DNA of 32,000 nucleotides, taken from positions 36,310 through 68,309 of the forward strand of contig JBHLOC010000018.1 in assembly GCA_048940925.1 (NCBI GenBank), in the 5' to 3' direction. Shown here piece after piece: positions 13,072 to 20,933 of the stretch (position 1 is the first letter of the stretch; each line of letters begins with the position of its first letter). The notes under the pieces are model-generated. The model was not told the DNA's origin and made no database searches. It was given only the letters and a program-made list of their open reading frames with translations. Made by a program: the position numbers and the translations under genes. The stretch comes from Promethearchaeota archaeon. Its GTDB lineage: Archaea; Asgardarchaeota; Lokiarchaeia; Sigyniarchaeales; SOKP01.

Positions 13072-13226
13072 ATTCTTCAGCTCTCCTTGCGATCTTCCTT
13101 TTGAATTTAATCTTTTTAATGAAAAACTTTTTTTATTACTCTTTATTCTTCTAACTACACTTTACCAAATAAGTAAAGATTTACATTGTAAATAATAGTA
13201 CTTATTAGATGGTAAAATGTGGTTTT

Positions 13227-13241
13227 ATAACCACATAAATA
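13227..13241 (+). repeat. 5' arm of a 15-bp perfect inverted repeat (processing stem) flanking the 5S rRNA unit
   Basis: ATAACCACATAAATA is the exact reverse complement of TATTTATGTGGTTAT at 13393-13407. Confidence 0.8.
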
Positions 13242-13254
13242 TATAGCATTTTGC

Positions 13255-13267
13255 TAAGCGCCGGATG
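13255..13267 (+). other. 5' half of the BHB-like processing motif (outer helix UAAGCG, central CCGG, bulge AUG)
   Basis: 13255-13260 pairs with 13389-13394. 13261-13264 pairs with 13382-13385. 13265-13267 is unpaired. Confidence 0.6.
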
Positions 13268-13387
13268 TTAAACTTATAAGTGTTGCAGGATAGTACTGCA
13301 GTTGCGATCTGTGGGAAACCTCAAACTGTGAGTTCGCTCACGGTCATGGCTTTAAAGGATAATACCCGGTCCCATCCGAACCCGGAA
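13267..13387 (+). rRNA. rrf: 5S rRNA, circularly permuted gene order (gamma domain - helix I closed by UUCG - helix II/III/loop C)
   Basis: 121 nt. Blocks present: ACCCGGUCCCAUCCGAACCCGGAA (13364-13387), GGUCAUGGC (13342-13350), GGAUAGUACUG...GGGAAACC (13288-13320) and the helix I hairpin CUGUGAG-UUCG-CUCACGG (13326-13343). Joining the ends gives the conserved CCCGGAA|GUUAAAC. Confidence 0.8.
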
Positions 13388-13394
13388 ACGCTTA
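13382..13394 (+). other. 3' half of the BHB-like processing motif (central CCGG, bulge AAA, outer helix CGCUUA)
   Basis: Complementarity as listed for 13255-13267. The AAA bulge is at 13386-13388. Confidence 0.6.
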
Positions 13395-13407
13395 TTTATG
13401 TGGTTAT
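13393..13407 (+). repeat. 3' arm of the 15-bp inverted repeat flanking the 5S rRNA unit
   Basis: TATTTATGTGGTTAT is the reverse complement of 13227-13241. Confidence 0.8.
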
Positions 13408-13503
13408 TAATGACATTAACCTTTTGTTTCTCTAAAAATAAATTTTTATACGATTAATTATAAATCTAATTAATATTTCATAATAAATTAGCTGAAAACA
13501 CAT

Positions 13504-20183: not shown

Positions 20184-20933
20184 ATGATTAAAAATATCTT
20201 CATCATGAAATCCACAGGGGAGTTAATTTTTTATAAAACCTATGAAGATATTTTTAATGTAAAACTTACAAGTAGTTTTTTAAGTGCGATCTTCTCATTT
20301 GTAAAACAAACATTAAAAACTGAAGAATTATCTGAAATTGAAGTAGGGCTCTTTAGGTTTATATTTGAAATTGAGAAAATGGGGAATGATGAATTACTAT
20401 TTGCATTATTTAGTGATCGAACTGAAAATTTAATCGAGTTAAGAAAACAATTACGAGAAGTAAAAAATCAATTTTTAAATAGATTTGATGTTAACTTATT
20501 AACTGATCATTATGATGGCGAGATTTCAAAATTTCTCGATTTTGAAAATAATATTAATGACATCATGGAAAGTAGTAAGCCATTGATCTCAAAAGAAATC
20601 CATGGAGATTTAATAAATATTTTTAATGAGCTGCATACATTCTCTTCTTTCGTCGTATCTTCAGCATTATTAACTCAGACAGGAAGAGTAATAGTTTCCT
20701 ATTTAGAACATAATGTTCTTACAGAAATCATACGACTTCTAGAGGGTAGATTTCTGGCAGGAAATTATAAAGTTAATGAGCTAATATCATTAGAAAAATT
20801 TGGCGTGCTTTCATTGGTAGGAATCAATGATAGTTATATATCAGTAATTCAATTTAAAAAAAATTGCCCTTTTGAGACAGGGTTAGTCATTTCAAAAAGA
20901 TTCTCAAATAGACTGCAAAAACTTATTTGTTAA
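20184..20933 (+). CDS. hypothetical protein, possible longin-like N-domain plus Roadblock/LC7-like C-domain
   Basis: 249 aa. The N-terminus IFIMKSTGELIFYKTY....LTSSFLSAIFSFVKQ resembles longin/SNARE-like folds. The C-terminus VVSSALLTQTGRVIVSYLE...VLSLVGINDSYISVIQF resembles Roadblock. Pattern level only. Confidence 0.35.
   Translation: MIKNIFIMKSTGELIFYKTYEDIFNVKLTSSFLSAIFSFVKQTLKTEELSEIEVGLFRFIFEIEKMGNDELLFALFSDRTENLIELRKQLREVKNQFLNRFDVNLLTDHYDGEISKFLDFENNINDIMESSKPLISKEIHGDLINIFNELHTFSSFVVSSALLTQTGRVIVSYLEHNVLTEIIRLLEGRFLAGNYKVNELISLEKFGVLSLVGINDSYISVIQFKKNCPFETGLVISKRFSNRLQKLIC

What the first reader, a model, noticed from the sequence alone, without database searches (positions are those of the whole stretch)
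13227..13407. Gene-level circularly permuted 5S rRNA, restored only by BHB cleavage and end-joining
Seen directly: the only strongly GC-enriched non-coding island in the window contains every 5S rRNA element, but in rotated order. ACCCGGUCCCAUCCGAACCCGGAA (13364-13387, helix III/loop C, the most conserved 5S block) sits at the 3' end of the island. What must follow it in any 5S lies upstream at 13267-13325: GUUAAAC, the helix II return strand CUUAUAAG, the loop-E-like GGAUAGUACUG...GGGAAACC, and helix IV CUGCAG-UUGCGAU-CUGUGG. The two strands of helix I are normally the free 5' and 3' termini. Here they are covalently linked by a UUCG tetraloop (CUGUGAG-UUCG-CUCACGG, 13326-13343) and run straight into GGUCAUGGCUUUAAAGG (loop A/helix II). 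The segment 13267-13387 is 121 nt, normal 5S size. Joining 13387 to 13267 gives CCCGGAA|GUUAAAC, the conserved CCCGGAAGUUAAGC context. The flanks form a bulge-helix-bulge fold. The outer helix is UAAGCG 13255-13260 / CGCUUA 13389-13394. The 4-bp central helix is CCGG 13261-13264 / CCGG 13382-13385. The 3-nt bulges AUG 13265-13267 and AAA 13386-13388 lie on opposite strands. Cutting between bulge nucleotides 2 and 3 (the rule I recall for the archaeal splicing endonuclease) lands exactly on 13266|13267 and 13387|13388. The inner helix is weak, so this is a relaxed HBh-type motif. A perfect 15-bp stem (13227-13241 / 13393-13407) clamps the unit. Inference: the transcript is excised by EndA and circularised by an RtcB-type ligase, giving a circular (or later re-opened) 5S rRNA. 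Permuted tRNA genes, a permuted SRP RNA in Thermoproteus and circular pre-16S/23S intermediates are established. I am not aware of a gene-level permuted 5S rRNA in archaea.
Basis: partly seen in the sequence, partly recalled or inferred. Interest (0 to 1): 0.93.

Follow-up and report, generated by a model that had tools for sequence, protein, structure and literature searches.

The report
Circularly permuted 5S rRNA gene
In this Asgard archaeon and at least 18 relatives, the 5S ribosomal RNA gene is written "back half first", flanked by an archaeal splicing signal that should cut out the RNA and join its ends; this has apparently not been reported and may explain why 5S genes go undetected in these genomes.

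Summary
Window 13267-13387 (+) holds every 5S rRNA element in rotated order. Helix I is closed by a UUCG loop. The break lies between CCCGGAA and GUUAAAC.

Rfam's 5S model sees only fragments (22-28 bits; threshold 38). A covariance model built only from conventional 5S of unrelated archaea, permuted in silico at that break, matches exactly 13267-13387 end to end (51.4 bits, E 6e-9). The same seeds in normal order give 19.8 bits over 22 nt.

The locus is syntenic in 19 distinct Asgard (Promethearchaeota, apparently Lokiarchaeia-like) sequences. After in-silico excision and rotation, 93% of cells pair in the canonical 5S fold. Seventeen of 36 pairs show compensatory changes. The leader-trailer stem also covaries.

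One subclade has a second breakpoint inside loop C. Two lineages carry short intron-like inserts. In the second breakpoint and one insert, only a cut between bulge nucleotides 2 and 3 restores the canonical sequence.

No RNA data were available, so ligation, circularity and absence of a conventional copy are inferred. No report of an archaeal permuted 5S was found in the searchable literature.

The parts
13121..13137 (+). Candidate archaeal promoter (BRE/TATA-like GAAAAACTTTTTTTATT)
   Evidence: A GAAAAAnTTTAATTATT-like element lies 120-150 nt upstream of the 5' cut in most related loci; it is at -84..-67 in L097, and variant forms occur in several others. Its function as a promoter is inferred.
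13164..13213 (+). Conserved leader hairpin (AAUAAGUA 13168-75 / UACUUAUU 13199-206 and extensions)
   Evidence: Inverted repeats I2 and I13. Reading the relatives' sequences by eye, the arms differ between lineages yet still pair: GCAAGC/GCUGC in L010 and GUUAGC/GCUAC in L030. Role unknown.
13227..13241 (+). Processing stem, 5' arm (AUAACCACAUAAAUA)
   Evidence: Perfect 15-bp complement of 13393-13407. On alignment A3, 86% of cells pair and 6 of 14 pairs show changes on both sides. The stem sequence is entirely different in L097 (UUUUCAGUUGUU/AACAACUGAAAA).
13244..13256 (+). Small leader hairpin at the junction (UAGC-AUUUU-GCUA)
   Evidence: Present in the MFE fold. All 5 pairs covary across relatives, for example GUAGC/GCUAC and UAAGC/GCUUA.
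13257..13260 (+). BHB outer helix, 5' strand (AGCG)
   Evidence: Pairs with CGCU 13389-13392. The GCG/CGC core is paired in all 19 sequences but is nearly invariant. L097 has an inserted U-A pair.
13261..13264 (+). BHB central 4-bp helix, 5' strand (leader CCGG)
   Evidence: Complementary to 13382-13385 and paired in 19 of 19 sequences; five have CUGG, giving a U-G wobble. It competes with CCGG 13366-69 in the MFE fold.
13265..13267 (+). 5' bulge AU|G; inferred cut between 13266 and 13267
   Evidence: The first two nucleotides vary (AU, AC, AA) and the third is always G, the first nucleotide of the mature sequence. No inner helix follows.
13267..13387 (+). Permuted 5S rRNA unit, 121 nt. Gene order is the 3' part (model positions about 52-120), then the UUCG loop, then the 5' part (positions 1-51)
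   Evidence: Model R1 hits 13267-13387 end to end at 51.4 bits, E 5.6e-9. Rfam RF00001 matches 13336-13387 as model positions 1-51 at 28.5 bits. The canonical fold is 93.4% paired with 17 of 36 covarying pairs.
13273..13281 (+). Helix II, 3' strand
   Evidence: Pairs with 13349-13357. Six of 9 pairs show changes on both sides.
13283..13325 (+). Gamma domain: helix V (13283-89 / 13319-25), loop E (AUAGUA 13290-95 / GAAA 13315-18), helix IV (13296-301 / 13309-14), loop D (13302-08)
   Evidence: Helices IV and V each have 4 of 6 covarying pairs. Several relatives carry about 30-nt extensions of helix IV.
13326..13343 (+). Helix I closed by a tetraloop: 3' strand CUGUGAG (13326-32), UUCG (13333-36), 5' strand CUCACGG (13337-43)
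   Evidence: 99% of cells pair and 3 of 7 pairs covary. The loop is UUCG in most sequences, UUAG in three type-B sequences, and is replaced by a 35-nt hairpin extension in L010/L060/L071.
13344..13365 (+). Loop A (13344-48), helix II 5' strand (13349-57), loop B region (13358-65)
   Evidence: Collinear with conventional 5S in alignment A1. Rfam alignment.
13366..13385 (+). Helix III and loop C (CCGGUC-CCAUCC-GAAC-CCGG)
   Evidence: Rfam RF00001 partial hit at model positions 26-52, 22.1 bits. Invariant in all relatives.
13382..13385 (+). BHB central helix, 3' strand; the same CCGG is the 3' strand of helix III in the mature fold
   Evidence: The two pairings are mutually exclusive, so a conformational switch is inferred.
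13386..13388 (+). 3' bulge AA|A; inferred cut between 13387 and 13388
   Evidence: The first two nucleotides are always AA (the conserved AA of GGAAG). The third varies (A, G, U).
13389..13392 (+). BHB outer helix, 3' strand (CGCU)
13393..13407 (+). Processing stem, 3' arm (UAUUUAUGUGGUUAU)
13421..13432 (+). T-rich stretch (CTTTTGTTTCTC), a possible archaeal terminator
   Evidence: Read from the sequence. Inference only.

Best explanation
This is the functional 5S rRNA gene of an Asgard (Promethearchaeota, apparently Lokiarchaeia-like) archaeon, encoded in circularly permuted order.

Inferred pathway:
1. Transcription starts upstream, probably from a conserved BRE/TATA-like element near 13121-13137. 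It yields a precursor whose leader and trailer form a long processing stem (13227-41 / 13393-407).
2. At the inner end of that stem a relaxed bulge-helix-bulge motif forms. It has an outer helix AGCG/CGCU, a 3-nt bulge AAA, a 4-bp helix made of leader CCGG with CCGG 13382-85, and a second 3-nt bulge AUG that is not followed by an inner helix.
3. The archaeal splicing endonuclease (EndA) cuts between bulge nucleotides 2 and 3, at 13266|13267 and 13387|13388.
4. An RtcB-type ligase joins A13387 to G13267. This recreates the universal ...CCCGGAA-GUUAAAC... sequence.

The product is a 121-nt covalently closed 5S rRNA. Its helix I is capped by the UUCG loop instead of having free ends. It most likely stays circular in the ribosome.

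Shown here:
- the permuted order
- conservation and covariation of the 5S fold and of the processing stem
- the motif geometry
- that the 2|3 cleavage rule alone regenerates canonical 5S sequence at a second breakpoint and at one of two intron-like inserts in relatives.

Inferred: the start site, cleavage by EndA, ligation, the circular final form, and that this is the only 5S gene.
For: 1. Order test. Model R1, built from conventional 5S of unrelated archaea permuted in silico, hits 13267-13387 end to end at 51.4 bits, E 5.6e-9. It hits every type-A relative at the predicted ends with 37-59 bits. The same seeds in normal order (R2) give 19.8 bits over 22 nt. Rfam RF00001 finds model positions 1-51 at 13336-13387 only when the stretch is cut there (28.5 bits). 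It finds nothing at the gathering threshold in the window or in nine related loci, while conventional controls score 77-98 bits.

2. Purifying selection on the fold. Across 19 distinct sequences, 93.4% of cells pair, 17 of 36 pairs have compensatory changes, 0 of 500 shuffles reach this, and slid controls reach only 24-44%.

3. The leader-trailer stem covaries, so the 5' arm is transcribed. The precursor folds with z = -4.1.

4. Bulge positions discarded by a 2|3 cut vary, and those retained are invariant.

5. A second breakpoint (type B; L134, L135, L142, L145) lies inside loop C. Its motif is GCG-CUGG-AA|C ... CCGG-UC|A-CGC. Only the 2|3 cut restores GGUC-CCAUCC. Model R3, permuted at that site, hits these loci end to end at 46-54 bits, against about 19 bits for R1 on L134 and L135, the two that matched it at all.

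6. L136/L137 carry a 31-nt loop-C insert with a 4/4 central helix and a strong inner helix. A 2|3 cut restores UCCCAU-CCGAAC.

7. Lineage competence, from the literature. Asgard archaea have the (alpha-beta)2 EndA with the L1 loop that accepts relaxed BHB motifs (PMC5829648). Circular 16S and 23S transcripts are seen in Asgard metatranscriptomes (PMC12918454).

8. No conventional-order copy was seen. All 14 hits of the loop-C 17-mer that lie in a 5S context in Asgard-labelled or unlabelled-archaeon genomes are permuted. The conventional junction 24-mer in JGI metagenomes hits only GC-richer conventional 5S genes resembling the Thaumarchaeota 5S of L120.
Against: - There is no RNA-level evidence of any kind. 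The ligated junction has not been observed.
- The BHB outer and central helices are invariant, so there is no covariation for the motif itself.
- The inner helix is missing.
- The MFE fold pairs the leader CCGG with the other CCGG (13366-69). The BHB conformer is 3.5 kcal/mol less stable.
- In most type-A loci the leader CCGGAAG duplicates the mature CCGGAAG. There the reconstitution argument rests on the variants AU, AC and A/G/U, and on type B.
A conventional 5S copy elsewhere is therefore not excluded.
- The 3' half alone gave no Rfam hit.
Confidence: 0.8

Rival explanations
1. The gene is a functional permuted 5S, but the ends are not joined. Precursor trimming or EndA cleavage without ligation leaves a linear, permanently permuted 5S with a nick at GGAA/GUUAAAC, held together by helices II and III. 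This would resemble the brown-algal mitochondrial permuted 5S.
For: Permuted 5S molecules that stay permuted exist in stramenopile mitochondria (PMC4267664). The fold around the break is held by helices II and III. No junction read has been seen.
Against: The break falls within some of the most conserved sequence of 5S: the GGAAG bulge region in type A and loop C itself in type B. The flanks form a splicing-type motif whose 2|3 rule regenerates canonical sequence exactly at two different breakpoints. The intron-like inserts in L136/L137 and L140/L141 would split the RNA unless exons are ligated. Archaeal EndA products are normally ligated by RtcB (general knowledge). Circular rRNA species are reported in Asgard archaea (PMC12918454).
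Confidence: 0.1
2. The circle is only an intermediate. After ligation the RNA is re-opened in or near the helix I loop, giving a conventional linear 5S, as happens with permuted tRNA genes.
For: Permuted tRNA precursors are circularised and then cut to standard ends (summarised in PMC10085705). Circular pre-16S and pre-23S are usually re-linearised (PMC12918454).
Against: The helix I cap is a conserved stable tetraloop (UUCG in 16 of 22 sequences, UUAG in 3), or in three loci a structured 35-nt hairpin extension. No second BHB or other recognisable processing signal was seen there. The Thermoproteus permuted SRP RNA stays circular (PMC4731332). No enzyme is known that would define 5S ends inside a tetraloop (my assessment).
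Confidence: 0.15
3. The locus is a rearranged relic or pseudogene. Alternatively the inverted repeat marks a mobile element, or a promoter-like AAATATATA sits inside the 5' arm with transcription starting near 13267. The working 5S would be a conventional gene elsewhere.
For: A TATA-like AAATATATA lies at 13237-13245 inside the 5' arm. The window's genome is a draft.
Against: The locus is syntenic and intact in 19 distinct sequences with compensatory changes in four helices. The stem arms covary as RNA, including completely different sequences in L097 and L046, so the 5' arm is transcribed. A promoter-like element is conserved further upstream. No conventional-order copy of this 5S type was found in the genome or metagenome scans.
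Confidence: 0.03

Closest known systems
Circularly permuted SRP RNA gene of Thermoproteus tenax (Plagens et al. 2015, PMC4731332)
   Same: It is a gene-level circular permutation of a universal, structured non-coding RNA. Canonical gene searches fail on it. [quoted passage not shown] This is the closest mechanistic analogue.
   Different: It is a different RNA (SRP RNA, not ribosomal) in a different phylum (Thermoproteota). Its expression, cleavage and circularity were shown experimentally; here they are only inferred. The present case shows two breakpoints and additional intron-like inserts across a whole clade.
Permuted tRNA genes (Cyanidioschyzon merolae; some archaea), processed through a circular intermediate
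   Same: The 3' half precedes the 5' half, the normal ends are joined by a linker, and a BHB-type motif forms at the junction of leader and trailer (summarised in PMC4267664, and PMC10085705).
   Different: There the linker is removed by tRNA end-processing enzymes, so the final product is linear and conventional. Here the linker is a conserved tetraloop with no evident processing signal.
Archaeal pre-16S/23S processing stems with BHB, circular pre-rRNAs, and the circularly permuted or circular 23S of Pyrococcus, Thermococcus and other archaea (PMC7758197, PMC12918454, bioRxiv 2026.03.23.713588)
   Same: A long leader-trailer stem contains a BHB, followed by EndA cleavage and ligation of the rRNA ends. 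Circular or RNA-level permuted rRNA can sit in ribosomes.
   Different: Those genes are collinear, and the permutation arises only at the RNA level. 5S is explicitly described as not going through circularisation (PMC12918454). Here the gene itself is permuted and ligation is needed to restore a conserved internal sequence.
Permuted mitochondrial 5S rRNA of brown algae and other stramenopiles (Valach et al. 2014, PMC4267664)
   Same: It is a 5S rRNA whose helix I is replaced by a closed hairpin, and it is missed by standard models.
   Different: It is organellar. The termini lie at the junction of the alpha and gamma domains. It has no BHB and no ligation, and the final product stays permuted. 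Here the break is in the beta domain (helix III or loop C) and is flanked by a splicing motif. In the permissive Rfam scan, RF00001 was the only 5S-type family to match the locus.
Small BHB introns in archaeal rRNA and tRNA genes, including relaxed HBh'/hBH motifs cut by (alpha-beta)2 EndA
   Same: The motif has a 4-bp helix flanked by 3-nt bulges, cleavage between bulge nucleotides 2 and 3, and one flanking helix missing. Asgard EndA is of the broad-specificity type (PMC5829648).
   Different: In the 5S locus the excised 'intron' is the functional product. I found no report of introns in 5S rRNA genes.

Membership tests
5S rRNA (Rfam RF00001) | Reaches the curated Rfam score (38 bits) as a collinear gene | tested here: not met
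   There are no hits at the gathering threshold in the window or in nine related loci. The best native hit is 22.1 bits over model positions 26-52. Conventional controls score 77-98 bits.
5S rRNA (Rfam RF00001) | Full-length match to a 5S covariance model once the order is corrected | tested here: met
   R1, built from permuted conventional seeds with no sequence of this lineage, gives 51.4 bits end to end at 13267-13387. Conventional-order R2 gives 19.8 bits locally. RF00001 positions 1-51 match at 28.5 bits on the truncated stretch. The 3' half alone gave no Rfam hit.
5S rRNA (Rfam RF00001) | Three-way junction with helices I-V supported by covariation; conserved loop A, C and E sequences | tested here: met
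   93.4% of cells pair. Covarying pairs: helix I 3 of 7, helix II 6 of 9, helix V 4 of 6, helix IV 4 of 6. Helix III is invariant. The sequences are collinear with conventional 5S after rotation.
5S rRNA (Rfam RF00001) | Is the 5S component of the large ribosomal subunit | not testable with these tools
   Needs sequencing of ribosome-bound RNA or cryo-EM.
BHB-processed permuted non-coding RNA genes (permuted tRNA, Thermoproteus SRP RNA) | The 3' part is encoded before the 5' part, with the normal termini joined by a linker | tested here: met
   The linker is UUCG at 13333-13336.
BHB-processed permuted non-coding RNA genes (permuted tRNA, Thermoproteus SRP RNA) | Leader and trailer form a bulge-helix-bulge: a 4-bp helix between two 3-nt bulges on opposite strands, with flanking helices | tested here: inconclusive
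   The central helix is paired 4/4 and the outer helix 3-6 bp in all 19 sequences. Both are invariant, so covariation gives no support. The inner helix is absent (relaxed HBh'/BHL type). The MFE fold prefers another partner for the leader CCGG by 3.5 kcal/mol.
BHB-processed permuted non-coding RNA genes (permuted tRNA, Thermoproteus SRP RNA) | Cutting between bulge nucleotides 2 and 3 and joining the ends recreates the canonical sequence | tested here: met
   Type A...CCCGGAA+GUUAAAC. Type B...CCCGGUC+CCAUCC, where shifting the cut by one nucleotide gives a non-canonical sequence. L136 insert: UCCCAU+CCGAAC. Discarded bulge positions vary and retained ones do not.
BHB-processed permuted non-coding RNA genes (permuted tRNA, Thermoproteus SRP RNA) | Junction-spanning or circular RNA detected; cleavage by EndA demonstrated | not testable with these tools
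   No transcriptome data can be searched by nucleotide sequence here. The scan of JGI metagenome contigs for the ligated junction returned only conventional 5S genes of other archaea.
BHB-processed permuted non-coding RNA genes (permuted tRNA, Thermoproteus SRP RNA) | The host encodes a splicing endonuclease able to cut relaxed motifs, and an RNA ligase | not tested
   Literature only: Asgard archaea carry (alpha-beta)2 EndA with the L1 loop (PMC5829648). Neither EndA nor RtcB was found among the window's ORFs of 110 aa or more.
Archaeal rRNA processing stem (16S/23S type) | Long helix between 5' leader and 3' trailer enclosing the rRNA, maintained by covariation | tested here: met
   The stem is 14-15 bp, 86% of cells pair, and 6 pairs have changes on both sides. 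The stem sequence is unrelated in L097 and L046.
Stramenopile mitochondrial permuted 5S (mtPerm-5S type) | Termini at the junction of the alpha and gamma domains; the product remains permuted; no splicing motif | tested here: not met
   The break here is in the beta domain and is flanked by a BHB-like motif. In the permissive Rfam scan RF00001 was the only 5S-type family to match. The family is as described in PMC4267664.

The most novel reading that the evidence does not exclude
In a large clade of Asgard archaea, the closest known prokaryotic relatives of eukaryotes, the only 5S rRNA is made from a permuted gene and functions in the ribosome as a covalently closed circle. The 5S gene in this clade behaves like the 'disrupted' tRNA genes of archaea: the breakpoint has moved at least once (GGAA|GUUAAAC versus GGUC|CCAUCC), and short BHB introns have entered loop C. 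This would explain why 5S genes are not found in some closed Asgard genomes.
Probability: 0.55. Interest if true: 0.92.

Novelty: new variant of a known kind. Interest (0 to 1): 0.88.

Why it matters
- 5S rRNA is usually treated as the easiest RNA gene to find, and as an rRNA that does not go through BHB circularisation in archaea (PMC12918454). A clade-wide permuted 5S gene would add a ribosomal RNA to the very short list of RNAs whose genes are permuted and repaired by the splicing machinery. So far that list holds tRNAs and one SRP RNA.

- It predicts a circular 5S rRNA inside ribosomes of Asgard archaea.

- It gives a concrete, testable explanation for 'missing' 5S genes. Wu et al. could not predict 5S in closed Heimdallarchaeum genomes (PMC8813620). 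It also bears on MAG quality calls that require a 5S gene, since none of the nine related loci scanned reached the Rfam threshold.

- The two breakpoints and the intron-like inserts give a natural series for studying how permuted genes arise and how relaxed BHB motifs are recognised.

- Practically, annotation pipelines need permuted 5S models of the R1 and R3 kind.

Tried and rejected
1. Rfam on the 3' half alone (13267-13336, 5'-truncated) gave no hit. The Rfam evidence therefore covers only the 5' half.

2. RNAalifold on the mixed alignment of conventional and rotated sequences (A1) recovered only helices II and III, because the ends were misaligned. I replaced it with an explicit structure on a lineage-only alignment (A2).

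It is useful for finding permuted loci but not for proving that a conventional copy is absent.

4. The metagenome scan for the ligated junction was meant to catch RNA-derived contigs or conventional-order copies. It returned seven conventional 5S genes of GC-richer archaea resembling the Thaumarchaeota 5S of L120. This gives no junction evidence, and both large scans are now spent.

5. Thermodynamic folding does not by itself give the BHB central helix.

6. A TATA-like sequence inside the 5' arm suggested a start site near 13267. I rejected this because the arm covaries with the trailer and a promoter-like element is conserved further upstream.

7. The flanking 183-aa and 185-aa ORFs were checked for a functional link such as a ligase or nuclease. 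They look like membrane proteins with no Pfam match, and they are syntenic along with the whole neighbourhood.

8. The first alignments of permuted conventional seeds (A4, A5) misregistered helix I between the two seed groups. I rebuilt them with one natural flanking nucleotide per side (A6, A7).

9. A neighbour-protein NJ tree was used as a rough phylogeny. It places type B in one subclade but next to type-A L005/L087. It is too weak to decide between a single origin and a reversal.
Full report
**Observation.**
- The most conserved 5S block, ACCCGGTCCCATCCGAACCCGGAA, lies at 13364-13387, at the 3' end of the island.
- The sequence that follows it in any 5S (GTTAAAC, the helix II return strand, loop E, helix IV) lies upstream, at 13267-13325.
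- The two strands of helix I are joined by TTCG (13326-13343).
- The 15-bp inverted repeat 13227-41 / 13393-407 is perfect. It is one of only two such repeats in the window.
- Rfam at its curated thresholds finds nothing in the 32 kb, and ARAGORN finds no tRNA.
- With permissive settings, RF00001 matches only model positions 26-52 at 13363-13388 (22.1 bits).
- When the searched stretch is cut at 13387, Infernal's truncated-hit mode aligns 13336-13387 to model positions 1-51 (28.5 bits, E 8e-5). The other half alone gives nothing.

**Whose genome.** The neighbours are an aIF-2B-family protein, a type III RuBisCO, TFS, aIF2-gamma, aIF1A, Spt5, five Ras-family GTPases and a longin-domain protein. 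The ORF just downstream is 100% identical to a protein of a 'Promethearchaeota archaeon' MAG. It has more than 200 homologues in Asgard MAGs, including Lokiarchaeota-labelled ones and the LCGC14 sediment metagenome. The window is therefore an Asgard chromosome, apparently Lokiarchaeia-like; the class was not established.

**Relatives.** The gene order is Peptidase_C25 / 185-aa / [island] / 180-aa / cupin / Ras / PIN / Ras / Fe-ADH. It is kept in related genomes, and the island is there too. Within what it returned, 14 hits lay in the permuted 5S context, all in Asgard-labelled or unlabelled-archaeon genomes. Conventional context appeared only in Methanomassiliicoccales-type and Thaumarchaeota genomes. 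Altogether there are 19 distinct units. None of the nine related loci scanned reaches the Rfam threshold, whereas the conventional controls score 77-98 bits.

**Order test.** I could not submit a rotated sequence to a model search, so I permuted the model instead.
- Ten conventional 5S sequences from Methanomassiliicoccales and Thaumarchaeota were cut in silico at GGAA|GTTAA, and their helix I ends were joined by TTCG.
- The resulting model R1 contains no Asgard sequence. It hits the window at exactly 13267-13387, end to end, at 51.4 bits, E 5.6e-9. It hits every type-A relative at the predicted ends with 37-59 bits.
- The same ten sequences in normal order (R2) give 19.8 bits over 22 nt in the window.
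- Rotated units align collinearly with conventional 5S.

**Covariation.** I excised each unit in silico, opened it in the helix I loop, and aligned the 19 sequences (A2). On this alignment the canonical 5S structure is 93.4% paired and 17 of 36 pairs show changes on both sides. No shuffle out of 500 reaches this, and sliding the partners drops pairing to 24-44%. Helix I, the helix that is loop-closed in the gene, has three covarying pairs. Helix III is invariant.

**Flanks.**
- On constructs of leader plus trailer (A3), the long stem is 86% paired with six covarying pairs. In L097 and L046 it has entirely different sequences that still pair. The 5' arm is therefore part of the RNA.
- A small leader hairpin (13244-56) also covaries.
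- A BRE/TATA-like element is conserved about 130-150 nt upstream of the 5' cut; in the window it is at 13121-13137.
- Together these argue against a start site near 13267.

**The splicing motif.**
- In all 19 sequences the leader ends GCG-C(C/U)GG-ANG and the unit ends CCGG-AAN-CGC. This gives an outer helix, a 3-nt bulge on the 3' strand, a 4-bp helix and a 3-nt bulge on the 5' strand. That is the strand arrangement of the archaeal BHB as I recall it from pre-tRNA.
- The helices are always paired but do not vary, so covariation says nothing about them.
- No inner helix follows the 5' bulge. The motif is of the relaxed kind.
- The MFE fold pairs the leader CCGG with the other CCGG of helix III. 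The BHB conformer costs 3.5 kcal/mol more.
- According to Kaneta et al., Asgard archaea have the (alpha-beta)2 endonuclease with the L1 loop that accepts relaxed motifs (PMC5829648).

**Why I still believe the cut sites.**
1. In the 5' bulge the first two nucleotides vary (AU, AC, AA) and the third is always G. In the 3' bulge the first two are always AA and the third varies (A, G, U). That pattern is expected if the cut falls between nucleotides 2 and 3 of each bulge.
2. One subclade (L134, L135, L142-147) has a different breakpoint inside loop C. The gene starts ...GCG-CUGG-AA|C-CAUCCGAACCCGGAAGUUAAAC and ends ...ACCCGG-UC|A-CGC. Here the leader is not a copy of the mature sequence. Only the 2|3 cut restores GGUC-CCAUCC. 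A model permuted at that site (R3) hits these loci end to end at 46-54 bits. R1 gives about 19 bits on L134 and L135 and no reported match on L142 or L145.
3. L136/L137 have the type-A break plus a 31-nt insert in loop C. The insert has a 4/4 central helix (UCCC/GGGA), a strong inner helix, and bulges AU|U and AA|C. The same rule restores UCCCAU-CCGAAC.
4. L140/L141 have a different 30-nt insert with a weaker motif.

**Mechanism, marked by status.**
- Shown: permuted order; selection on the 5S fold; a transcribed processing stem; motif geometry; sequence restoration by the 2|3 rule.
- Inferred: promoter and terminator; EndA cleavage; RtcB ligation; a 121-nt circle.
- I think the circle is the final form. 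The helix I cap is a conserved tetraloop (UUCG or UUAG), or in L010/L060/L071 a structured 35-nt extension. No processing signal is evident there. The permuted SRP RNA of Thermoproteus also stays circular (PMC4731332).

**What is not settled.**
- No RNA evidence was available.
- The junction scan of metagenome contigs returned only conventional 5S genes of other archaea.
- A conventional copy in this draft genome cannot be excluded.

**Literature.** Full-text searches for permuted, circular, split or intron-containing 5S returned only the stramenopile mitochondrial case. Searches combining 5S with Asgard, Lokiarchaeota or BHB found no report.
- A 2023 survey of natural RNA permutations lists 5S only from that mitochondrial study (PMC10085705).
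- A 2026 paper states that archaeal 5S does not go through circularisation (PMC12918454).
- Wu et al. note that 5S genes could not be predicted in closed Heimdallarchaeum genomes (PMC8813620).
- Subscription-only papers are outside the library.

**Verdict.** This is a real, conserved, gene-level circularly permuted 5S rRNA. It works like the permuted SRP RNA and permuted tRNA genes but applies the mechanism to a ribosomal RNA. It occurs across an Asgard clade with a moving breakpoint and intron-like inserts. It is best classed as a new variant of a known kind, and it is of high interest.

Noticed in passing
L136:1228-1378 and L137 (same sequence; GCA_964486045.1 CAZALK010000001.1): The permuted 5S unit carries a 31-nt insert in loop C: CCCAT[TGGGGCAGGGATAATACCCGGTCCCGGGAAA]CCGAAC. 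The insert contains a duplicate of GGATAATACCCGGTCCC. It fits a BHB-like intron with central helix UCCC/GGGA, bulges AU|U and AA|C, and a strong inner helix. I found no report of introns in 5S rRNA genes.
   Followed up: partly
L140:1223-1375 and L141:1223-1375: A different 30-nt insert lies in loop C: CCCATACCGAA[AACCCAACTTGATTCGAG(G/A)TGGATCGGGAA]CCCGGAA. Its BHB-like motif is weaker (central helix 3 of 4 pairs), and its boundaries are ambiguous within a run of A. The restored loop C would read CCCAUACCGAAC, one nucleotude longer than in the window.
   Followed up: partly
L010:4414-4564, L060, L071: The UUCG cap of helix I is preceded by a 31-nt insertion, giving a 35-nt loop: UUGAUUGCGCGCUUCGCGCCGCAAGCAAAGAUUCG. 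It folds as an extension of helix I with its own UUCG hairpin (-16.7 kcal/mol). An expansion at this position is possible only because helix I has no free ends.
   Followed up: partly
L005:2738-2887, L087, L115:5612-5761, L116, L133:1209-1359, L145:1238-1387: Helix IV / loop D is lengthened by about 30 nt in several lineages, with different sequences in each. These are either 5S expansion segments or further excised inserts. The base of helix IV still pairs.
   Followed up: partly
L132:1000-1500 versus L133:1000-1500: Two contigs from related sediment metagenomes encode the identical 180-aa protein (P0112). Only L133 has the permuted 5S upstream. In L132 the sequence left of 'ttattacctatttc' is unrelated and an LRR protein gene is adjacent. 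This could be a rearrangement, strain variation or an assembly join.
   Followed up: no
window:13153-13236: The leader contains a conserved hairpin (arms around 13168-75 / 13199-206). It also contains a mini-hairpin ATGTGGTT/AACCACAT (13217-24 / 13229-36), whose 3' arm is also the start of the long processing stem. The two structures therefore compete for AACCACAT.
   Followed up: partly
window:20187-20260: The only other perfect inverted repeat of at least 15 nt within 250 nt in the window is ATTAAAAATATCTTCATCA / ATGAAGATATTTTTAAT. It sits at the very start of the ORF 20184-20933, which has a weak longin-domain (Fuz_longin_1) match.
   Followed up: no
window:8350-9288 (-): The aIF2-gamma-like ORF is only 312 aa. 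It matches the GTP_EFTU profile only from position 85 onward, so the N-terminal P-loop part seems to be missing from the called ORF. The same 312-aa gene is called on the Logan contig L001.
   Followed up: no
window:24360-25190 (-): A 276-aa ORF has two partial Ras-family matches, the first starting at profile position 47. It may be a fused or truncated pair of small GTPases. Four other, full-length Ras-family genes are in the window.
   Followed up: no
window:1-32000: ARAGORN finds no tRNA gene, and Rfam at its curated thresholds finds no RNA family, anywhere in 32 kb of an archaeal chromosome that encodes several translation factors.
   Followed up: no
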